From IMG/VR virus record IMGVR_UViG_3300032007_000001: a DNA stretch of 64,000 nucleotides; one strand, given 5' to 3'. The DNA is from a virus. Lineage: Duplodnaviria; Caudoviricetes. Shown one piece after another: positions 4,818-21,561 of the stretch. A program made the translations under genes and the position numbers. Under the pieces are notes generated by a model. It was not told the origin of the DNA, did no database searches, and saw only the letters and a program-made list of their open reading frames with translations. How positions within the stretch are numbered: the first letter of the stretch is position 1; every line of letters starts with the position of its first letter.

Positions 4818-6749
4818 TTATAAACTGTCTATGTTAGCACTAAAAGCATTTTCTTCTATAAATTCTTTTCTCAATGAAGCGTCTTTTCCCATAAGTATTT
4901 CGAACATTTTTGCAGCTTCTTCGGCATCTTCTATAGTTATTCTTTTTAACGTTCTTGTTTTTGGGTCTAGAGTTGTTTCTTTGATTTCTGTATGGTTCAT
5001 CTCGCCCAAACCCTTAAAACGGTATAAAATATCATTGTCGTTTGGATGCAGTTTTCTATATTTTTCCAATTCATTATCATCTGCTATATAAACAGATGTT
5101 GTATCTTTTTTTACTATTCTATATAATGGTGGCAAAGCTGCATATACATGTCCTTTCCTAACCAATTCTGGCATATAATAGTAAAATAATGTCAATAACA
5201 ATGAACGTATATGAGAACCATCAACATCAGAGTCTGTTAATATTATTATTTTATCATATCTTATATTATTGACATCGAATTTATCTCCAATTCCTCCACC
5301 AATAGCTGCTACTATACCTTTAATAATTTCAGAATTTAATATCTTCCCAATATCAGCTTTTGATACATTTAATATTTTACCACGAAGTGGCAATACGGCT
5401 TGGAATTCTTTATATCTTCCTTGTTTCGTTGTACCAGCAGCTGAATCACCTTCTACTATAAGTAATTCACTTTGTCCTTCGTGGTTAGCACAATCTGCCA
5501 ATTTCCCAGGAAGAGCCATGGAAGTAAGTTGTTTTGCTTTTCTTGAATTTAGTCTCGCTTGTCTTGCTGCAAGTTCTGCTGTTTTTGTTTTGCTTGCTCT
5601 TTCAGCTATTAAGTCAAGTATCTTGGATTGTTTACGGTTTTTGGCTATTGCTTCCAATCCTTTTTTAAGCACACTTTCAACCGCATCTTTCGCAATAGCA
5701 TTGCCAAGTTTTGTTTTTGTTTGTCCTTCAAATTCAGCATTGGTCATTTTGATAGAGATAGTAGCATATAGGCCATCTTCAAAATAACGCATTTCAATAG
5801 GTTCTTTGATTAACTTCTTATTAATAGCATATTCATTCAAGTAATCTTTTAATGCATTCCTAAATCCTTGGACATGCATACCACCTTCATAGGTATTGAT
5901 ACTATTGACGAAAGATTTGATTTTATTGTTTGGTTCAACCTCATTATCATGAATAAAAGAAATTTCTACTAAAATCTTACTCCCGTCTATATTGTCATAC
6001 TTATCGTTGATAAGAATTGGTTCATCATATAAACGTTTTTTCTTTTCAATTAATTGTAACGTATATCCATTAATGCCGTCTTTATAATAAAAAGATTTAT
6101 TAACTTTTCTTTTTTCGTTAATATAATTGATAGTCAATCCAGAATTTAGTGAAGCTAATTCTACTAAACGACCTTCTAATCTATTTGAAGGTTCAAGAGA
6201 AGCTTTATAGATTTGTTTATCTGGGTGATATTTAATGGTTGTACCAGTTTCATCAGTATCTCCAATAACTTCTACTTCAGAAGTTGGAACGCCATAAGCA
6301 AATTCTTGTTTATAAATATGTCCATCTCTTTTTACAATGGCACAAAAATAATCACTGCAAGCATTGGTGCAGCACGAGCCAACGCCGTGAAGGCCCGCGC
6401 TTACCGAATATCCGCTATTTTTATCATGACTATATTTACCACCAGAATGAAGTGTTGTAAGAATACCTGTAAGAGTATCAATAGGCTTACCATCTTTATC
6501 TTTGAAAATTTCTGATGGACCAACGGGAATTCCTCTACCTCTATCAATTACTTCTACTGTAAAATCCTTATATATATGAACATCTATAACATTACCATAA
6601 CCGGCCATAAATTCGTCAATTGAATTATCCAATATTTCATAGACAAGTTGTTCTGTGGAATTTAATTGTCCTAAATACATGGCTGGCATTTGACGTATTG
6701 CATCAACATTTTGAAGAGATTTTATTTGATTAACACCATATTCGCTCAA
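4818..6749 (-). CDS. gyrB: Type IIA topoisomerase / DNA gyrase subunit B
   Basis: EILDNSIDE, DRGRGIP, GLHGVG, EGQTK, EGDSA, PLRGKILN, DSDVDGSHI, RFKGLGEM; AAGGTG RBS with TTG start. Confidence 0.95.
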   Translation of the reverse strand: MSEYGVNQIKSLQNVDAIRQMPAMYLGQLNSTEQLVYEILDNSIDEFMAGYGNVIDVHIYKDFTVEVIDRGRGIPVGPSEIFKDKDGKPIDTLTGILTTLHSGGKYSHDKNSGYSVSAGLHGVGSCCTNACSDYFCAIVKRDGHIYKQEFAYGVPTSEVEVIGDTDETGTTIKYHPDKQIYKASLEPSNRLEGRLVELASLNSGLTINYINEKRKVNKSFYYKDGINGYTLQLIEKKKRLYDEPILINDKYDNIDGSKILVEISFIHDNEVEPNNKIKSFVNSINTYEGGMHVQGFRNALKDYLNEYAINKKLIKEPIEMRYFEDGLYATISIKMTNAEFEGQTKTKLGNAIAKDAVESVLKKGLEAIAKNRKQSKILDLIAERASKTKTAELAARQARLNSRKAKQLTSMALPGKLADCANHEGQSELLIVEGDSAAGTTKQGRYKEFQAVLPLRGKILNVSKADIGKILNSEIIKGIVAAIGGGIGDKFDVNNIRYDKIIILTDSDVDGSHIRSLLLTLFYYYMPELVRKGHVYAALPPLYRIVKKDTTSVYIADDNELEKYRKLHPNDNDILYRFKGLGEMNHTEIKETTLDPKTRTLKRITIEDAEEAAKMFEILMGKDASLRKEFIEENAFSANIDSL

Positions 6750-6855: not shown

Positions 6856-7974
6856 TTAATTATGCACAATTATGAAATTTGACTGATTTAGTGCAACGCA
6901 AAGGTTGTTTGCCTTGCATAATTTTATATAATACATTGCTTTCTTTTCTGTATTTTTCATCAATTGAGTAGATACTACTTTGTGATTATAATTTTTTACA
7001 TATTCTAAGAATTTATTAAAATCTTTGAAATACTTTTCTATTTTTGAAAATGGTTGAGCATTGCTATGCAAAAATCTTTTCTTTTCTTCATAATTTTCTT
7101 CAGTGATTTGTTTTCCTTCATCTAATAAAAGTCTTCCTATTTTTGCTATAGCATTTCTTTTTGATGTTTTTCTGTCTTCAATAGAACGTGTTAACATTTT
7201 ATAGTCGCTATTTGACAATTTATTTTCATATTCATAACTAAGATTCAAAAACTCATCAAAAGATTCAAAGTATTTATTGACAAGATTCATATTAATTGGG
7301 AATCTAAGAAATCCATTAATTCTATTTGACTCTAACAAATCTTGGTCTAAAATCAAATATTTTCTTATTAAACATGCAGCAGAACGTAATACATATTCTC
7401 GTTTTTGGTCATTTAAGATATTCTTATCTCTATCTGCATTGTAGCGTATCGTTTTTTCTCTATCATGATAAGCTTTATGTTTATTAGAATCTAACCAAAT
7501 TAAATTAGTTGGATTATTATTTTTATGATTTTCGTCAATGTGATGTACATCAAATCCGCCTATATCAATTTTGGGTTCCATATAATTCATAACCATATGA
7601 TGAGTAAATTTCCATTCATTATTATTAATGTCATAAAACATTTCTCTATCGTAGTTATAGTCTTCTTGATTAATTTGAAAATTCATTGGAAATATACTAT
7701 CAGCTTTTTTTAATAAATTTGCAGAAACGTATCTATTGTCTTTTGTATAAAAAAGATGAAGTGGGTCTGTTTCTATATAATTGCCTGTGTCTAATGTAAT
7801 AATGAAAGTATCATAAATATAAGATTTATTAATTGATGATACTTTATCTGGAAAAACGTTGTTATTTTCATCAATTGAATAGACAAAATAATCTTCTTTT
7901 TTGTTATTGAACATTTCTTCTATAGATTTTATTGTTCCATCTAAAAGTTTTATTAAAGTATTTCCACTCAGCAT
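6856..7974 (-). CDS. Free-standing intein-like protein with HNH homing endonuclease (no exteins)
   Basis: Block A-like MLSGNTLIKLLDG, block B-like GNYIETDPLHLF, HNH DVHHIDENHKNNNPTNL, YNHKVVS, ends IIVHN-stop; RBS GAGGGTG before ATG 7974. Confidence 0.8.
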   Translation of the reverse strand: MLSGNTLIKLLDGTIKSIEEMFNNKKEDYFVYSIDENNNVFPDKVSSINKSYIYDTFIITLDTGNYIETDPLHLFYTKDNRYVSANLLKKADSIFPMNFQINQEDYNYDREMFYDINNNEWKFTHHMVMNYMEPKIDIGGFDVHHIDENHKNNNPTNLIWLDSNKHKAYHDREKTIRYNADRDKNILNDQKREYVLRSAACLIRKYLILDQDLLESNRINGFLRFPINMNLVNKYFESFDEFLNLSYEYENKLSNSDYKMLTRSIEDRKTSKRNAIAKIGRLLLDEGKQITEENYEEKKRFLHSNAQPFSKIEKYFKDFNKFLEYVKNYNHKVVSTQLMKNTEKKAMYYIKLCKANNLCVALNQSNFIIVHN

Positions 7975-8080
7975 ATCTCTCACCCTCTCAGAAGCTGCTT
8001 GTGCACATTATATATACGTTGTTATAGATTTATTTTAAGCATAAAAAAAGAACTGGATAATCCAGTCCTTTTTATTTATT

Positions 8081-8668
8081 TTACATCTCTAAATTATCTT
8101 GTTCTCCTGTTTCAAAATATTTTTGTATCTTTTTTAATCGTTCTAATTTTTTCTTGTCAACCGATTTTTCACTTTTTTCCAATTTTTTTATCTTTTTTAA
8201 GTTTTCTTTTTTAAGATAATCTAACATTTTATTCATGTCAATCCAATTATTAAAATGTATTGTATCATCATAATTTGGCAATTTGTAATCTTTTGAAAAA
8301 ATATTTTTATAATCATCATAATTATTACAACTTTTAATTTCAATATCTTCTACTATCCCATCTGGATTTCCGTCAAAATCAATACTAACAGTAATAATTG
8401 CTGTTACATAAGAATTTAATTCGTTTTCACTTCTAAATACATGTAATTCTGTTACATAAAATAATGGATATTTTATCCCATCTTCGTTTGTCTTTTGATA
8501 TCCAAATTGTCCCCTTAATCCAACATCTTTTCCAGTTGTATCGTTTAATCTAAAGAACAATTTTTCATTAAATAAATTTGAATCTTTACTATTTATCAAC
8601 TTTTTTACTATATTTTCATTTATATTAAATATATTAGGAGATAATCCTTGTTTTATAAGATGTTTCAT
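8081..8668 (-). CDS. Hypothetical protein, paralog of 33266..33757
   Basis: MKHLIKQGLSP, LFNEK, GQFGYQKTNED, PLFYVTELHVFR shared with the 33 kb copy. Confidence 0.85.
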   Translation of the reverse strand: MKHLIKQGLSPNIFNINENIVKKLINSKDSNLFNEKLFFRLNDTTGKDVGLRGQFGYQKTNEDGIKYPLFYVTELHVFRSENELNSYVTAIITVSIDFDGNPDGIVEDIEIKSCNNYDDYKNIFSKDYKLPNYDDTIHFNNWIDMNKMLDYLKKENLKKIKKLEKSEKSVDKKKLERLKKIQKYFETGEQDNLEM

Positions 8669-8681
8669 TTTTTGTTCACCA

Positions 8682-9104
8682 TTAAAAACTACTTATTTTT
8701 ACATTTAGTTTTTTACTTGCTTTCTTGAAAAAAATATCTCTGGGTTGTAACGGCATATATCTTACAAACGCATCTTCATCAATATTTTTTGAATATACTA
8801 ATATTTCCAAGTTGTTTGTATCTTTAACTACAAAACTCATACCCGGTGTTTCTCTTCTTACTGTTTTAACCAATAATTTGACATTGGCATCCAATTTAAT
8901 CCAATTTTTGTAAAAAATTTTATGCCCACCAATATCTATCATAACCCAAGGCATACCAATACCAACAGCAAAATCGTTATCACCGTCATAATTGGGTACG
9001 AGTTCAATATTTCCTTTTATATTATCAATAATATACTTAAACATTTTTATCGTTTCTCTTTCGAATTCTTCTTGCCAAAATTTTTCTTTATTTGTTCTAT
9101 TCAT
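8682..9104 (-). CDS. Hypothetical protein, paralog of 33763..34203
   Basis: NDF..G..W..I.I.GH.I, PG..F and (V/I)YS.N shared; AAGGAGG RBS. Confidence 0.8.
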   Translation of the reverse strand: MNRTNKEKFWQEEFERETIKMFKYIIDNIKGNIELVPNYDGDNDFAVGIGMPWVMIDIGGHKIFYKNWIKLDANVKLLVKTVRRETPGMSFVVKDTNNLEILVYSKNIDEDAFVRYMPLQPRDIFFKKASKKLNVKISSF

Positions 9105-11247: not shown

Positions 11248-11610
11248 ATGGAATTACCTGCATGGCTGCAAATTGCTTTTATGATATTATCCTCTTGCCT
11301 TTCTTTAGTTGTAGCTTATCTTGGAACAAAAATCAAGAAACTGCAGGAGAGAAAAGAAGAGGAAGCTAAGCAAACTGCAAAAGAAGAAGAAGCTTTTAAG
11401 ACTGGCATCAGGTCGATGCTAAGAGACAGATTAATTTACATCTGCTATAAATGTAAAGAAAAGAACTGCATTACAGTTGACGAACTTGAAAACCTTGCTG
11501 ATATCTTTAAGTCATACGATGATTTAGAAGGCAACGTTGCAGTAACTAAACTTTACAAAGAAACAATTGCATTACCATTAGACGCTAATGAAAATGTGAA
11601 ATATATTTAA
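11248..11610 (+). CDS. Holin-like membrane protein, paralog 1
   Basis: Single N-terminal TM; LRDRL...ELENL..IF.SY.DL.GN phage family often annotated as holin; GGAGG RBS. Confidence 0.6.
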   Translation: MELPAWLQIAFMILSSCLSLVVAYLGTKIKKLQERKEEEAKQTAKEEEAFKTGIRSMLRDRLIYICYKCKEKNCITVDELENLADIFKSYDDLEGNVAVTKLYKETIALPLDANENVKYI

Positions 11611-11618
11611 GTGAGCTA

Positions 11619-11755
11619 AGAACAATGAAACAAATCAATACTGAAACACATAGCGATAAAAAGAGCGTGGATGTTCTTTATCGCTTGTGTAGTGATTCAG
11701 GCGCTACCCTCTAACATTGAGATAGCGCTTATTTTTATAAAATTTCATTGTTTTT
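11619..11755. ncRNA. Candidate structured RNA / cis-regulatory element
   Basis: Nested complementary stems: AACAATGAAA/TTTCATTGTT, CTGAA/TTCAG, ACACA/TGTGT, AGCGATAAA/TTTATCGCT, GCGCTA/TAGCGC. Confidence 0.5.
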
Positions 11756-11824
11756 TTATAAACGAGACTTTTTGAAATATTTTACTTATAGTAAGAAAGA
11801 CAATATTTTTATGGAGGGATAATA

Positions 11825-12241
11825 ATGGAATTACCAGCATGGACGCAAGTTGTTTTTATGATTATTTCTTCTATTCTTTCAATTATTGTCGCATATCTTG
11901 GACGTAAAATTACTCAAGAACAAGAAAGACGTGATAAGGCTGAAGAACAAATAACTAAAGAAGAATTAGCTTTGAAAACTGGTATTCGTGCAATTCTTAG
12001 AGACCGTTTACTATATATATGTCTGATTTGCGAAAGAAGAGGAGCAATAACAGTTGAAGAACTTGAAAATCTTTCTGACATTTTTAGGTCTTATGAAGAT
12101 TTAGGTGGTAATGGAGCTGCTAAAAAAATTTATCAAGATACAGTCGAATTGCCATTAACTACACATGCAAAGGATGCAGAACATGATGTTGGAATAAGTG
12201 ACGAAACGTTACAACACATAAAAAAAATGAAGCTATCATAA
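11825..12241 (+). CDS. Holin-like membrane protein, paralog 2
   Basis: MELPAW..., LRDRL, ELENL, SYEDLGGNG; clear tandem duplicate. Confidence 0.6.
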   Translation: MELPAWTQVVFMIISSILSIIVAYLGRKITQEQERRDKAEEQITKEELALKTGIRAILRDRLLYICLICERRGAITVEELENLSDIFRSYEDLGGNGAAKKIYQDTVELPLTTHAKDAEHDVGISDETLQHIKKMKLS

Positions 12242-12295
12242 TGATAGCTTTTATTTTTATAAAAAATAAATGTATGTTATTTATAGAAATAATAT

Positions 12296-12817
12296 TTGGG
12301 TGATATATATATGCTAAACTTAAATGATATTATAACATACGGCAATGCAAAATTCAAAGTAGTTAAATTTGCAACAAGTAATGATATAAATGAACTTAAT
12401 AAGAAAATAGGTCTGGGTGTTGATTGGTGTTATATCTACCCAAATGGTGGTACAGAATCAAATCCAGCAACCGTGTCAAATAATTCTGAATACATCGAGA
12501 ATAATCCGTTCCCGGGGTATATCGTAGAATGTAAACCGGAATTATATGTTGACGGAGATTGGGGTTTTCCAAATTGGGCGCAAAGTGTTAGACCAGATAA
12601 TAATACATGGATGGGATTCGGTGTTTCTGCTAATCAACACAATAACGAGAACATAAATATTAAGGTCGGTTCTCAACATTTATATACTGGGTCTTCCTAT
12701 GGAAATACGCTTAATGGTTCTTCTTGGCCAAAAAATTCTCCAACAACAGGTCCATTGAACACACCTCTTCCTTGCCGCGTCAAAGTCTGGAAAATTGGAA
12801 AAATTAAGGAGAACTAA
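12296..12817 (+). CDS. Stand-alone tail-fibre tip-like domain protein
   Basis: IYPNGGT..NPA.V...Y...NPFPGY.V.C..E....WG...PCRVKVWK resembles a tail-fibre C-terminal domain; start may be ATG 12311. Confidence 0.5.
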   Translation: MGDIYMLNLNDIITYGNAKFKVVKFATSNDINELNKKIGLGVDWCYIYPNGGTESNPATVSNNSEYIENNPFPGYIVECKPELYVDGDWGFPNWAQSVRPDNNTWMGFGVSANQHNNENINIKVGSQHLYTGSSYGNTLNGSSWPKNSPTTGPLNTPLPCRVKVWKIGKIKEN

Positions 12818-12834
12818 AGTTTAGTTCTCCTTTT
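12806..12834. terminator. Bidirectional terminator
   Basis: AAGGAGAACTAAA-G-TTTAGTTCTCCTT between convergent genes. Confidence 0.8.
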
Positions 12835-13346
12835 TATATCCACAAACTATCAAAATATTTGGCAAACAATAGTATTCCTCTTTTTTTTTCTCTTTCTTCT
12901 TTTTCTGTCTTTATTTCAGAATTATGCGTTGCTAAATCAAAAGCATATATAATTTTATCTAATATTTTATCCCATTCTTCAGTTGCTTTTTCTTCATCTT
13001 TATATTTCTCATATATTTTACTCGGAATTGAATTTTTATTTTTCTTAAATCTTTTTAATAATTTCGCAATAATACCGGCAGATATAGTATCTAATTCCCA
13101 TACCATATCATTGACACCTTGAATTTTATGATAATTTTCTTCATCGCCTATCATAAAATTAATGGTGCTTTTTAATTTTTGTTTTTGTTCTCTGTTTTTT
13201 TGTTTGCATTGATGAAGCCTATCTCTAAGAATTATGTTTTCAATCTGGAGTGACACATTCTCCAAACGTATATTATTATATTCATTACTTTCCAATTGAA
13301 GCAAACGGTGTTTTTCTTTCTCCAAAGCATTCAGTTTTTTATTCAT
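12834..13346 (-). CDS. Conserved phage hypothetical protein
   Basis: W.LD...A.II...L..FK...P...W..ILD.II.AF...G..LF.KYF..LW pattern common in phages; promoter TGTACA-N17-TAGAAT at 13364-13392. Confidence 0.7.
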   Translation of the reverse strand: MNKKLNALEKEKHRLLQLESNEYNNIRLENVSLQIENIILRDRLHQCKQKNREQKQKLKSTINFMIGDEENYHKIQGVNDMVWELDTISAGIIAKLLKRFKKNKNSIPSKIYEKYKDEEKATEEWDKILDKIIYAFDLATHNSEIKTEKEEREKKRGILLFAKYFDSLWI

Positions 13347-19695: not shown

Positions 19696-21561
19696 TCATA
19701 CATTTACCACAAACTCTCTAATATCCCATTCTTCTTCTGTCTCATACATTTTTCGTCTTACTTTTGTTTGTCTTTTAAACATTGGAGTTTCATCATCAAA
19801 ATCAAATACAAAAGCTTTTGTTTTTCCAGGGTATAAACGTAATACTCTGCCAATTCTCTGGAAAGCTCTTGTAGAAGATTTTCCAGCGCCAGCTAAAATT
19901 AATGTATCTAAATTTGGTAAATCTAATCCTTCATCTGCAATTACGCTTGCAATCAATATTTTACAAACTCCTTGTTTTACACCTTCTATAACAGCCTGTC
20001 TTTGTTTTGTTGAATCTTTACCAGAAAGAAATTCTATATTAGACACTTCCAATGTATCTTCCAATCCAGATTTTGGGTCTATAAATGTAACATTTTGTTT
20101 TGTTTCACCAATAATATGCAATAATTTATCTCTTAAAAATTCTCCATGTCTTACTAATTTTACAAGAATCAAAATCGTACGATTTCTTTTATATAATTGA
20201 TAAGCTATTTTGCATACCATTTTATTTCTTGGAGTATTGTCTACTATCGCTTTTTCATATAAATCTTGATAATTTTTTCCTTTGAAAAAGCCATGTACAG
20301 GAACAAAATAAATCGTAGGCTTTACTAAATATCCTAATTGAATTAATTTAGAAGCATTAATATCATTTTCGTGATTTCTACGATTTAATATTGCTTCTAT
20401 AAGCATATCATCTCCGCTATCTCTCCACGGTGTCGCAGAAACGCCAATTCTATAATATGCATCTTTACACATAATGGAAGTTTTTAAGCATGTATCTGCA
20501 GCACAATGATGACAATTGCTTACCAAAATTCCATTAGCAAAGAAATTATGGTTCTTTTCTACAGTGATATCATATACATATTCTATTCTTGAAGCCACAT
20601 TGACAGCATTTAAAACAATACCATGAATAATATCCTTTCCATCAAACAAAATCACTTCTGTGTCCTTCTGAAGGTGTTCTGTGCGGATATATTTATTGTC
20701 TGAATAAGAAAATATTTTGTGATTATGCGTACACATTAAATTGTACGTTTTTTTATTAAAGTCTTTTATAGAAATAGAGTAAATTTTTCTTTCACCAATT
20801 GGTTGTTCCATATAATTGATGATTTTATTTTCTTCCAATGAACCGGTAGAAACATTATATGTCATTACATTGGCGTTGATTCTATTTCTTACTATTTCTC
20901 CAATTTTCATATTCGACCCATCTGACATTAGAACGTTTACATTTGCAGGTAAACATTCATCAATCATTATCATTTTGGCTTGCTTACATAAATCTTCATC
21001 AGCCGATTGTATTGACATAACAGTAATATCTTGTGGGTCATATATACCATCGCCAATAAAGCCAATCTTTCTGCCGAGAAATTTTTCAAATTCTGATTTT
21101 AATTGATTGCATAATGTAATTTTATCAGCAAAAACGCAGACTGGAGATACTTTATATTTTGCTATCAATCCAGCCATGATAAAAGTTTTCCCTGCACCAG
21201 TTGCAGCTTGAATCGTTTCTCTTTCGTTACATCTATCTATAATTTCTTGCTGATATGGACGTACTACCAATGGAGTATCTCCAATTTTTTCTACCAATTC
21301 ATAATCAGCATTTTGTTCTGGTTTTACTCTTAAATCTTTTATTTTATATGGAATATTACAATCGTTGCAAAAATCTATAACGTTATGTATGAGTCCTGCA
21401 TATGTTTTTAACGTTTTCTTATTAAAAACATGACGATATCTGACTTCACGCATACCAAAAACTTCTACTTTGAAGCTTAATTTTGCCCAAAGATTTGAAG
21501 CTTGGTCTTTTGTCAAGCCAATTACTTTTACATATACATTGTCTAATTCTAATGTTACCAC
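19696..21561 (-). CDS. SF2 DExH helicase (UvsW/XPB-like) containing a mini-intein
   Basis: RPYQ, ATGAGKT, IIDE|CHH, SATP, EGLDLP, QRIGRVLR. Confidence 0.9.
   Translation of the reverse strand: MVTLELDNVYVKVIGLTKDQASNLWAKLSFKVEVFGMREVRYRHVFNKKTLKTYAGLIHNVIDFCNDCNIPYKIKDLRVKPEQNADYELVEKIGDTPLVVRPYQQEIIDRCNERETIQAATGAGKTFIMAGLIAKYKVSPVCVFADKITLCNQLKSEFEKFLGRKIGFIGDGIYDPQDITVMSIQSADEDLCKQAKMIMIDECLPANVNVLMSDGSNMKIGEIVRNRINANVMTYNVSTGSLEENKIINYMEQPIGERKIYSISIKDFNKKTYNLMCTHNHKIFSYSDNKYIRTEHLQKDTEVILFDGKDIIHGIVLNAVNVASRIEYVYDITVEKNHNFFANGILVSNCHHCAADTCLKTSIMCKDAYYRIGVSATPWRDSGDDMLIEAILNRRNHENDINASKLIQLGYLVKPTIYFVPVHGFFKGKNYQDLYEKAIVDNTPRNKMVCKIAYQLYKRNRTILILVKLVRHGEFLRDKLLHIIGETKQNVTFIDPKSGLEDTLEVSNIEFLSGKDSTKQRQAVIEGVKQGVCKILIASVIADEGLDLPNLDTLILAGAGKSSTRAFQRIGRVLRLYPGKTKAFVFDFDDETPMFKRQTKVRRKMYETEEEWDIREFVVNV
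20515..20955 (-). mobile_element. Mini-intein (147 aa, no endonuclease) in helicase motif II
   Basis: CLPANVNVLMSDG ... CTHNH ... VYDITVEKNHNFFANGILVSN followed by Cys+1. Confidence 0.9.

What the first reader, a model, noticed from the sequence alone, without database searches (positions are those of the whole stretch)
6856..7983. Extein-less, splicing-degenerate intein carrying an HNH nuclease beside gyrB
Seen: the ORF is an entire intein outline, from block A to a terminal HN followed directly by a stop, with its own RBS and an upstream terminator. Cys1 is replaced by the initiator Met (MLSGNTLIKLLDG), block B TxxH reads DPLH, and block F VYD..HNF reads MYY..NNL. The HNH core (VHHIDENHKNNNPTNL..H...H) looks intact. 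Established: the Synechocystis Ssp GyrB intein is an HNH-type intein beginning CFSGDTLVALTDG, and free-standing phage homing endonucleases (T4 seg/mob) cut neighbouring genes of competing phages. Inference: an intein has left its host gene and become a free-standing homing/marker-exclusion nuclease, an unusual route to a free-standing HEG.
Basis: partly seen in the sequence, partly recalled or inferred. Interest (0 to 1): 0.8.

Follow-up and report, generated by a model that had tools for sequence, protein, structure and literature searches.

The report
Phage intein turned stand-alone HNH nuclease
A 504-kb phage carries, just upstream of its gyrase B gene, a complete intein that has lost its host protein and its splicing residues but kept an intact, strongly conserved DNA-cutting module; this is a viral, HNH-type counterpart of the yeast HO/WHO endonucleases.

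Summary
The gene lies on the minus strand, 6856-7974, with the true start at ATG 7974. It encodes 372 aa that align end to end with real HNH inteins. Met stands exactly where Cys1 should be, and a TAA stop follows the terminal His-Asn. It has its own RBS and an upstream terminator.

The AlphaFold model (pLDDT 85) has a full Hint fold (Z about 19 to solved inteins), an I-HmuI-like HNH and a helical HTH-like region. Seven homologues (44-95% identical) exist, six traced to contigs upstream of gyrB, none with exteins. All seven lack Cys1 and the block F Asp/His, and five lack the terminal Asn. The HNH residues are invariant and dN/dS is 0.05.

The nearest relatives are inteins in GyrB. They sit at the Toprim IM|(C/T)DADVDG site, not at the Ssp-GyrB-type EGDSAGG|S site. 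One related contig carries both this gene and a full intein at that site, so a copy became free-standing.

Nuclease activity and target are untested. I favour a gyrB-directed homing or exclusion nuclease, with domestication as the main rival. This is a new variant of a known kind (yeast HO/WHO). First readers of this scan also flagged this family in another genome (e1-5641686).

The parts
6856..7974 (-). Free-standing intein-derived gene (372 aa + TAA stop at 6856-6858). The longest-ORF start, GTG 7983, is probably not used.
   Evidence: ORF list and translation. RBS and start. Stop. Seven homologues, 44-95% identical, all aligned from Met-Leu. dN/dS 0.05.
7675..7974 (-). Hint N-terminal half (aa 1-100): blocks A and B. 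Met replaces Cys1, and DPLH replaces TxxH.
   Evidence: Alignment A3. Model strands and Hint matches at Z 17-19.5, rmsd 1.7-2.5 A over 134-142 residues. dN/dS 0.03 against L015.
7459..7662 (-). HNH nuclease module (aa 105-172). The core DVHHIDENHKNNNPTNLIWLDSNKHKAYH lies at 7465-7554.
   Evidence: Pfam HNH_3 28 bits > 24.8. Four PHROG HNH families. H144, H145, N153, P155 and N157 are invariant across all 19 aligned sequences; H166 and H170 are invariant in the six-member family alignment and at least 90% conserved in the 19. I-HmuI 1u3e Z 7.8, 77 residues aligned.
6994..7416 (-). Helical region (aa 187-327) with motifs ACLIRK and NAxAKIG shared with Toprim-site GyrB inteins. Residues 264-330 resemble a TetR-type helix-turn-helix. 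Presumed DNA-binding part.
   Evidence: Alignment A3. Model helices. TetR N-domain matches at Z about 6 are weak and only suggestive. It lacks about 80 columns of YN(K/G)S repeats that the inteins have.
6859..6993 (-). Hint C-terminal half (aa 328-372): NYNHKV, degenerate block F (MYY..KANNL) and terminal IIVHN.
   Evidence: Alignment A3. Strands 331-371 in the model. The Hint matches span model residues 1..372.
7981..7987 (-). Shine-Dalgarno GAGGGTG, 6 nt before ATG 7974.
   Evidence: Read directly from the sequence.
8045..8073 (-). Intrinsic terminator of the upstream 195-aa gene. It isolates the free gene from upstream transcription.
   Evidence: Terminator scan: 13-bp stem plus T run, 2 sites found against 0.3 expected.
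4818..6749 (-). gyrB-like topoisomerase II large-subunit gene (643 aa), intein-free, 106 bp downstream on the same strand. No terminator was detected between the two genes, so co-transcription is possible.
   Evidence: Pfam and PHROG. Terminator scan. Intergenic sequence.
5217..5258 (-). gyrB Toprim motif YDKIIIL|TDSDVDG. This is the empty counterpart of the insertion site used by the closest intein relatives (IM|CDADVDG) and the candidate ancestral target.
   Evidence: Site occupancy in relatives.

Best explanation
SHOWN: the gene is a duplicate of an HNH-type intein of the lineage that occupies the Toprim IM|(C/T)DADVDG site of GyrB. It has become an independent gene. The initiator Met sits at the Cys1 position and a stop follows the last intein residue. 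There are no exteins. The splicing residues are lost (Cys1, block B Thr, block F Asp and His, and in most relatives the terminal Asn). The Hint fold is complete in the model, the HNH active-site residues are conserved, and the whole length is under strong purifying selection. The gene is kept between the NAD-ligase and gyrB genes in a clade of huge phages.

INFERRED: it works as a free-standing, site-specific HNH DNA endonuclease. The Hint halves and the helical HTH-like region would serve as the DNA-recognition scaffold, as the Hint domain does in PI-SceI and HO. Its most likely target is a conserved stretch of gyrB in genomes with a sensitive allele, the Toprim motif being the ancestral homing site. 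A cut there would be repaired from the nuclease-carrying genome. That repair would co-convert gyrB together with the nearby nuclease gene, in the manner of T4 seg/mob or yeast WHO homing and marker exclusion. Its own genome would be protected by allele differences (window, L001, L103) or by inserts that break the site (mini-intein, group I or group II intron, full intein in L003, L021 and the P0005 contig).
For: Origin and anatomy:
- End-to-end colinear alignment with 11 Toprim-site GyrB inteins and one from a RecJ-like protein.
- The seven best non-family N-part scores are all at that site (157-104 bits). All nine hosts checked are GyrB by Pfam.
- Apart from the family itself, the eight proteins that also match profile positions 161-371 are seven Toprim-site GyrB inteins and one RecJ-like intein.
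- In the trees the family is monophyletic (100/100) and sits among the Toprim-site inteins. In the full-length tree the four non-GyrB-Toprim inteins other than the RecJ-like one form a separate group (90/81); in the N-part tree 55 other-site inteins form one clade (SH-aLRT 93).
- Hint fold at Z 17-19.5, and I-HmuI HNH at Z 7.8.

Selection:
- 66 synonymous against 21 non-synonymous differences to L015, dN/dS 0.05, and 0.03-0.08 in each of the four regions.
- HNH residues are invariant.

Independent gene: RBS, terminator and stop. The open frame is 383 codons.

Link to gyrB:
- The gene is always 0.1-3.5 kb upstream of gyrB, while the small genes around it differ.
- The Toprim motif of gyrB in these relatives is a hot spot for selfish inserts.
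- The L001 gyrB reads VIMM-C-DADVDG, with the intein-type +1 Cys but no intein.
- Pairwise identities of the free gene and the gyrB N-half disagree (L003-L103: 84% gyrB against 59% free gene). Nucleotide homology to the 95% relatives ends 5 bp past the gene's stop. Both point to recombination at this locus.

Precedents: WHO/HO (PMC7282813). T4 mobE is listed by title and abstract only (PMC2790892).
Against: - No cleavage data, and the target is unknown.
- The gene is present and intact in all seven sampled relatives, with no pseudogenes. Purifying selection is as strong as in a housekeeping gene. Selfish free-standing endonuclease genes are usually patchy and decay.
- It lacks the YN(K/G)S repeat region of its intein relatives, which probably contacts DNA, and it sits on a long stem branch. 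Its specificity may therefore no longer be the Toprim site.
- In the P0005 contig it coexists with a full HNH intein at that site, which would be redundant if the specificities were equal.
- No duplicated gyrB fragment flanks it, unlike WHO elements.
- The sampling is biased. Most relatives were found through the gene itself, so absence in near relatives could not be tested.
Confidence: 0.5

Rival explanations
1. Domesticated nuclease or DNA-binding protein. The ex-intein now performs a job for the phage itself in the replication module (for example processing of replication or recombination intermediates, host DNA attack, or regulation). It is inherited vertically and is no longer a selfish homing element, as HO is in yeast.
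For: - Present and intact in 7 of 7 sampled lineages whose gyrB N-halves have diverged to about 51% identity.
- dN/dS is 0.05 across all regions, including the Hint halves.
- Fixed position in the DnaB-primase-ligase-gyrB-gyrA block.
- Possibly co-transcribed with gyrB, since no terminator lies between them.
- Long stem branch and loss of the intein's YNKS repeats suggest a new specificity.
Against: - No known phage function needs a Hint-HNH protein.
- The surroundings are unusually mosaic, with a homology break exactly at its 3' end, and its pairwise identities disagree with those of gyrB. That is what active homing produces.
- The neighbouring gyrB is riddled with selfish elements in relatives.
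Confidence: 0.3
2. Trans-acting helper ('collaborative homing'). The free nuclease cuts insert-free gyrB alleles and so mobilises endonuclease-less passengers at the Toprim motif (the mini-intein, or the ORF-less group I or group II intron). Those passengers in turn protect the carrier genome by breaking the target site.
For: - L003 has a mini-intein without a nuclease plus an ORF-less group II intron at the motif.
- L021 has an ORF-less group I intron inside DADID|G.
- Both carry the free gene 1.2-3.5 kb upstream.
- T4 mobE is reported to promote trans homing of the defunct I-TevIII (PMC2790892; title and abstract only).
Against: - The window, L001 and L103 have the free gene but an empty Toprim site.
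- The P0005 contig has an intein with its own HNH there.
- No cleavage data exist.
Confidence: 0.12
3. Inactive relic. The gene is a decaying intein copy on its way to loss, with no function.
For: Splicing residues are gone. Pfam Intein_splicing scores below its cut-off.
Against: - Intact frames in seven lineages down to 44% identity.
- dN/dS 0.05, with 66 synonymous against 21 non-synonymous changes.
- Invariant HNH residues.
- A confident full-length fold.
Confidence: 0.02
4. A true intein or split-intein piece whose exteins were missed (misassembly, frameshift, recoded stop or fractured gene).
For: Such cases exist nearby in sequence space. P0162 looks nearly extein-less but lies inside a fragmented gyrB.
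Against: - The open frame is 383 codons from stop to stop.
- TAA is not reassigned in the known phage codes.
- An upstream terminator and the gene's own RBS are present.
- The downstream gyrB is complete from residue 1.
- The family members traced to contigs from different samples show the same boundaries, and all seven lack the catalytic Cys1.
Confidence: 0.01

Closest known systems
Yeast HO endonuclease and WHO elements (Coughlan et al. 2020, PMC7282813)
   Same: - Intein-derived proteins with no exteins and no need for splicing.
- The Hint region is retained around a nuclease domain.
- WHO genes lie beside their target gene (FBA1), are transcribed independently, and rely on allele differences for resistance.
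- One member (HO) was domesticated.
   Different: - The nuclease is LAGLIDADG, not HNH.
- They carry a C-terminal zinc-finger fusion, absent here, where there is an internal helical HTH-like region instead.
- They are eukaryotic and act in meiosis.
- WHO elements are flanked by duplicated target-gene fragments and form clusters with pseudogenes. Neither is seen here.
- Here the target is not demonstrated.
HNH inteins at the GyrB Toprim site IM|(C/T)DADVDG (e.g. P0044, P0026, P0160 residues 214-665; metagenomic, unnamed)
   Same: - Colinear from first to last residue at 28-37% identity.
- Shared motifs: GxTK(V/I)KLLDG, SLMP, HHxDxNxxNNxPxNL, ACLIRK, NAMAKIG, NYNHK.
- Same Hint-HNH-helical-Hint order.
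   Different: - Those are in frame inside GyrB, with Cys1, TPDH, block F D..H and a terminal HN/HQ followed by +1 Cys.
- They carry an extra YN(K/G)S repeat region.
- The window protein lacks all of these and is a separate gene.
Free-standing phage HNH homing endonucleases (T4 mobE; I-HmuI as structural reference, PDB 1u3e)
   Same: - Independent small gene between essential DNA-metabolism genes.
- HNH beta-beta-alpha-metal core plus helical DNA-binding parts.
- I-HmuI matches at Z 7.8.
- Presumed action on a neighbouring gene of competitors.
   Different: Those have no Hint domain and are not derived from inteins. They are typically patchy among relatives, whereas this gene was present in every sampled relative.
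Ssp GyrB intein type (site EGDSAGG|S; represented here by P0007/P0008 and the L003 site-1 intein)
   Same: An HNH-type intein family of GyrB, with 30-33% local identity to the window protein.
   Different: - It uses a different insertion site and falls in a separate group in the tree (90/81).
- It lacks the shared ACLIRK and NAMAKIG middle region.
- That Ssp GyrB itself sits at this site is from my memory, not tested here.
Bacterial intein-like (BIL) domains (PDB 2lwy)
   Same: A Hint fold outside a classical intein context. It is the best structural match (Z 19.5, tied with the next rows, all mini-inteins).
   Different: BILs have no nuclease, keep their processing residues, and sit inside larger, often secreted, proteins.

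Membership tests
Intein (protein-splicing element) | In-frame insertion inside a host protein, with N- and C-exteins | tested here: not met
   The open frame is 383 codons stop to stop. The gene has its own RBS and an upstream terminator, TAA follows right after HN, and the downstream gyrB is complete.
Intein (protein-splicing element) | Hint fold made of the N- and C-terminal halves | tested here: met
   AlphaFold model with pLDDT 85. Z 17-19.5, rmsd 1.7-2.5 A over 134-142 residues against solved mini-inteins, spanning residues 1..372. Foldseek top hits are all inteins. Caveat: the alignment used for the model contained true inteins.
Intein (protein-splicing element) | N-terminal nucleophile (Cys/Ser1) | tested here: not met
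   Met is at the aligned position in 7 of 7 family members.
Intein (protein-splicing element) | Block B TxxH | tested here: not met
   The window has DPLH. The Thr is absent in most members. The His is kept in 6 of 7 (Gln in P0011).
Intein (protein-splicing element) | Block F Asp/His and block G His-Asn followed by a +1 Cys/Ser/Thr | tested here: not met
   The block F D and H are replaced in 7 of 7. The terminal Asn is present only in the window and P0002 (the others end T, V, V, V and GSE). A stop codon stands in place of the +1 residue in 7 of 7.
Intein (protein-splicing element) | Pfam PF14890 Intein_splicing above its gathering score | tested here: not met
   23 bits against 35.8, although the match spans the whole profile, positions 1-155.
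Free-standing HNH homing endonuclease | Intact HNH (beta-beta-alpha-metal) motif | tested here: met
   PF13392 28 bits > 24.8. Four PHROG HNH families. H144, H145, N153, P155 and N157 are invariant in the 19-sequence alignment; H166 and H170 are invariant within the family and at least 90% conserved overall. I-HmuI Z 7.8.
Free-standing HNH homing endonuclease | Independent gene between host genes with its own expression signals | tested here: met
Free-standing HNH homing endonuclease | Site-specific cleavage of a nuclease-less allele near its own locus, with biased inheritance | not testable with these tools
   This needs enzyme assays and co-infection crosses.
Free-standing HNH homing endonuclease | Sporadic distribution among close relatives | tested here: inconclusive
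   Present in all 7 sampled lineages. Five lineages were found through the gene itself, and only two contigs through neighbouring genes (L019 via gyrB; L103 via ligase), each of a type already sampled through the gene itself; both have it. The 80 distant gyrB loci lack it.
WHO/HO-type intein-derived endonucleases | Intein-like region without exteins, independent of splicing | tested here: met
   Family definition from PMC7282813.
WHO/HO-type intein-derived endonucleases | LAGLIDADG nuclease plus C-terminal zinc finger | tested here: not met
   The nuclease is HNH. There is no Cys-X2-Cys array in the sequence. This makes it an analogue, not a member.
WHO/HO-type intein-derived endonucleases | Lies beside its target gene, flanked by a duplicated fragment of that gene | tested here: not met
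   The gene is adjacent to gyrB, but no second gyrB fragment exists in the window. Targeting of gyrB is unproven.
GyrB Toprim-site HNH intein lineage (descent, not current state) | Closest homologues by score, by shared middle-region motifs and by tree position | tested here: met
   The exact sister lineage within the group is unresolved (polytomy).

The most novel reading that the evidence does not exclude
Huge phages have evolved their own HNH-type version of the yeast WHO/HO system. An intein copy shed its exteins and splicing chemistry and kept the Hint fold as a DNA-recognition scaffold. It persists as a free-standing nuclease that polices or mobilises alleles of the adjacent gyrB gene. 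The Toprim motif of gyrB in this clade is contested by a full intein, a mini-intein, a group I intron and a group II intron. This would be the first viral or prokaryotic case of the intein-to-free-standing-endonuclease route, and a natural system for testing how splicing elements and nucleases associate and dissociate.
Probability: 0.4. Interest if true: 0.75.

Novelty: new variant of a known kind. Interest (0 to 1): 0.62.

Why it matters
Textbook models have free-standing endonuclease genes invading inteins and introns. The reverse step, an intein shedding its host gene and living on as a nuclease, is documented only for yeast HO/WHO (LAGLIDADG type).

Here the same step is seen for an HNH intein in a virus. 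The source lineage can be identified, and intermediate states survive in relatives: a full intein, a mini-intein, a +1-Cys 'scar' and an empty site. That makes the order of events, the re-use of the Hint fold for DNA recognition, and the choice between selfish and domesticated fates directly testable.

The family also offers a compact, naturally splicing-dead Hint-HNH scaffold, and a possible new site-specific nuclease aimed at a very conserved gyrase motif.

I found no description of such a phage protein in the paper library. GenBank phages hold only distant intein hits.

Tried and rejected
- Direct PDB sequence search gave only weak Npu DnaE intein hits (E 0.2-0.5). The fold search was needed.
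- The gyrB-based scan of IMG/VR found one relative only. Presence or absence among near relatives therefore stayed untestable.
- The ligase-based search found one new syntenic relative that has the gene (L103), and one non-syntenic contig (L104) that is uninformative.
- A search for other extein-less Hint-HNH proteins of similar length found none among the 120 best hits listed. The best candidate, P0162 (M+CFTGD...VHN+7 aa), lies inside a fragmented gyrB. P0257 has short flanks and was not pursued.
EGDSAAG is shared by L001 and by L003, and L003 carries an intein exactly there. The free gene's relatives also use the other site.
- Rfam found no family for the roughly 290-bp insert in the L103 gyrB, and nothing in the window itself. 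No tRNAs were found.
- A misassembly or hidden-extein reading was rejected (see rivals).
- The TetR-like HTH match (Z about 6) is too weak to claim a fold.
Full report
**What is there**

The finding's coordinates hold one ORF on the minus strand, 6856-7983 (375 codons from GTG). On that strand an intrinsic terminator (8073-8045) closes the upstream 195-aa gene. A TATAAT-like box follows, then GAGGGTG (7987-7981), and six nt later ATG 7974. The GTG at 7983 lies inside the Shine-Dalgarno sequence. All seven family proteins have Met-Leu at this aligned position. Five begin there as called; P0003 and P0005 were called with longer N-termini, which I trimmed. The product is therefore most likely 372 aa, MLSGNTLIKLLDG...NFIIVHN.

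The stop is TAA, directly after His-Asn. The frame is open for only 383 codons from stop to stop, so no extein can be hidden. A complete 643-aa gyrB-like gene starts 106 bp further on (4818-6749, own RBS, TTG start). No terminator was detected between the two genes.

The window is part of a 504,279-bp virus record rated complete. The same genome has ordinary mini-inteins in a helicase (window 19696-21561) and in a dCMP deaminase.

**Is it an intein outline?**

Yes. Pfam gives HNH_3 above its cut-off (28 against 24.8 bits). Intein_splicing scores below its cut-off (23 against 35.8) but covers profile positions 1-155 across residues 11-375.

A profile of the family (A1), searched against 1.84 billion representatives, found 2940 proteins at E<=1e-3. 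Nearly all of the 150 best listed are 660-3000 aa, and in every one I examined the match is embedded in a larger host protein. Only two representative clusters (P0006, P0011) have the free-standing length.

An alignment of the seven free-standing proteins with 11 inteins cut out of GyrB proteins and one from a RecJ-like protein is colinear from the first residue to the last (A3):
- Met aligns with Cys1.
- DPLH aligns with block B TPDH.
- AMYYIKLCKANNL aligns with block F PMYDFTVExYHNF.
- IIVHN aligns with the terminal IIVH(N/Q).

An AlphaFold model built on A3 has mean pLDDT 85 and pTM 0.66. Foldseek and VIA-align return solved inteins as the top matches (Z 17-19.5, rmsd 1.7-2.5 A over 134-142 residues, using both ends of the protein). 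After those come I-HmuI (Z 7.8) for residues 41-176 and weak TetR-type HTH matches (Z about 6) for residues 264-330.

The anatomy is therefore:
- Hint-N: residues 1-100
- HNH: 105-172
- flexible linker: 172-188
- helical region: 187-327
- Hint-C: 328-372

**It cannot splice, yet it is maintained**

Across the seven family members:

| Feature | State in the family |
|---|---|
| Cys1 | Met in 7 of 7 |
| Block B Thr | mostly lost |
| Block B His | Gln in P0011, kept in the other six |
| Block F Asp and His | lost in 7 of 7 |
| Terminal Asn | kept only in the window and its 95% relative (others end HT, HV, HV, HV, GSE) |
| +1 residue | a stop codon in 7 of 7 |
| HNH residues H144, H145, N153, P155, N157 | invariant across all 19 aligned sequences |
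| HNH residues H166, H170 | invariant in the six-member family alignment, at least 90% conserved in the 19 |

Against the 95%-identical relative there are 66 synonymous and 21 non-synonymous differences. That gives dN/dS 0.05, and 0.03-0.08 in each of the four regions, the Hint halves included. Relic and misassembly readings are therefore rejected.

**Where it came from**

After the family itself, the seven best-scoring N-terminal matches (157 to 104 bits) all follow the extein string (R/K)Y(D/E/G)K(V/I)I(I/F)(M/A/T)| and precede |CD(A/S)DVDG. This is the Toprim DxDxD motif of GyrB. All nine hosts scanned are GyrB by Pfam. Apart from the family itself, the eight proteins that also match the profile's second half are seven Toprim-site GyrB inteins and one RecJ-like intein; they share the motifs ACLIRK, NAMAKIG and NYNHK.

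In a 77-sequence tree of the N-part, the family is one clade (100). It attaches among the Toprim-site inteins, while the 55 inteins from other sites form a separate clade (SH-aLRT 93).

In a careful full-length tree:
- The family is again monophyletic (100/100), on a stem of 1.2 changes per site.
- It sits in an unresolved group with the Toprim-site inteins.
- Toprim-site inteins never form a clade of their own in the bootstrap trees.
- The Ssp-GyrB-type site-1 inteins (P0007, L003 site 1) group elsewhere (90/81).

**Relatives**

The gene was traced to contigs of 2.7 to 420 kb from several metagenomes, plus a 178-kb IMG/VR record. In every contig that reaches both genes it lies between the NAD-ligase and gyrB of a DnaB-primase-HU-ligase-gyrB-gyrA block, among small genes that differ from genome to genome.

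State of gyrB in each lineage:

| Lineage | Site 1 (EGDSAAG\|) | Toprim site |
|---|---|---|
| window | empty | empty (IIIL\|TDSDVDG) |
| L001 | empty | empty, but reads VIMM-C-DADVDG, the intein-type +1 Cys |
| L103 | unclassified insert of about 290 bp inside EG\|DSA | empty; a GIY-YIG gene follows gyrB |
| L003/L004 | full HNH intein | mini-intein, followed at once by an ORF-less group II intron (RF02004, 180 bits) |
| L021 | empty | ORF-less group I intron inside DADID\|G (RF00028, 50.7 bits) |
| P0005 contig | mini-intein | full 452-aa HNH intein (P0160 residues 214-665) |

Three points follow. Related phages do have this intein lineage inside gyrB. One contig has both the in-gene intein and the free gene, so the free gene is an old duplicate rather than a recent escape. 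The Toprim motif of gyrB is a contested homing site in this clade.

**Signs of exchange at the locus**

Nucleotide homology between the window and its 95% relatives stops 5 bp after the free gene's stop codon. There the relatives carry an extra 239-aa gene.

Pairwise identities of the free gene and of the gyrB N-half also disagree. L003 and L103 are 84% identical in gyrB but 59% in the free gene, while L001 and L103 are 75% and 74%.

**Mechanism**

Shown: descent, anatomy, loss of the splicing residues, retained HNH, purifying selection, independent expression signals and linkage to gyrB.

Inferred: nuclease activity and target.

I favour a free-standing site-specific HNH endonuclease acting on sensitive gyrB alleles of competitors, with co-conversion of the linked nuclease gene. 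This parallels the free-standing T4 endonucleases (mobE, PMC2790892, seen here by title and abstract only) and the yeast WHO elements (PMC7282813). I give it about 50%.

The main rival, at about 30%, is domestication. It is supported by the gene's presence in every sampled relative and by housekeeping-like constraint. A trans-helper role for the nuclease-less mini-intein and introns is a further variant, at about 12%.

**Comparison and novelty**

The protein is not an intein. The defining features were tested and not met: exteins, nucleophiles, block F/G, and the Pfam threshold.

It is not a member of the HO/WHO family either, which has a LAGLIDADG nuclease and a zinc finger. It is the closest functional and evolutionary analogue of that family.

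Full-text searches found no report of an extein-less or free-standing intein other than HO/WHO. GenBank phages contain only distant in-gene intein matches. I rate it a new variant of a known kind.

First readers of this scan flagged the same family in another genome (e1-5641686) and a similar-looking case next to a portal gene (e1-5367808). The first I confirmed in my alignment; the second I did not test.

Noticed in passing
window 19696-21561 (-): A 621-aa ResIII/Helicase_C-type helicase carries an ordinary mini-intein (MIMIDE|CLPANVNVLMSDG...NGILVSN|CHHCAA) in its DExH region.
   Followed up: partly
L007 1213-2169 (-) = G000:C1 about 292.4-293.4 kb (outside the window): The dCMP deaminase gene carries a mini-intein (ELC|LTGDNYVRLLDG...LIVHN|CRSQHAE). 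Pfam Intein_splicing scores 39 bits.
   Followed up: partly
G000:C1:264832-265050 (-) (L011, outside the window): A further Intein_splicing C-part match (23 bits) lies in an 813-codon frame that contains one TAA stop. It may be a broken or unusual intein-bearing gene.
   Followed up: no
L003 9313-13795: The gyrB of a related phage carries three selfish inserts. A full HNH intein sits at EGDSAAG|, a mini-intein at DKIIMM|, and an ORF-less group II intron (RF02004 180 bits, RF00029 55 bits) lies directly after SDSD of the Toprim motif.
   Followed up: partly
L021 13196-13564: The gyrB of a 178-kb relative has an ORF-less group I intron (RF00028, 50.7 bits) inside the Toprim codons DADID|G.
   Followed up: partly
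L103 17991-18269 and 18945-20003: The gyrB is interrupted inside EG|DSASG by a non-coding insert of about 290 bp with no Rfam match. A 352-aa GIY-YIG gene lies just downstream of gyrB.
   Followed up: partly
L001 gyrB (11293-13233), Toprim motif: This intein-free gyrB reads VIMM-C-DADVDG, with Cys where GyrB normally has Thr. That is the +1 residue of Toprim-site inteins, so it may be a scar of precise intein loss.
   Followed up: partly
L102 843-6482: A more distant phage has a fractured gyrB: an N-fragment, a 359-aa free ORF, then a 51-aa split-intein C-piece ending ...IIVGN|CSGGLHGV. The GLHGVG ATP-lid motif is therefore an intein site too.
   Followed up: no
L003 4024-6008: The NAD-ligase gene of this relative is split by an IS605 OrfB/TnpB (Cas12f-like) gene of 412 aa.
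   Followed up: no
window 6851 / L015 9124, L017 2352: Homology to the 95%-identical relatives ends 5 bp past the free gene's stop. The relatives then carry a 239-aa gene ending ...GFRPIFQYKDTNKS. That resembles the multi-copy 'constant frame, variable core' family noted elsewhere in this genome, and it is absent here.
   Followed up: partly
window 8081-9104 against L015 6866-7894: The two small genes upstream of the free gene are only 75-80% identical to those of the close relative, while the ligase and the free gene on either side are 95%. This is local mosaicism.
   Followed up: no
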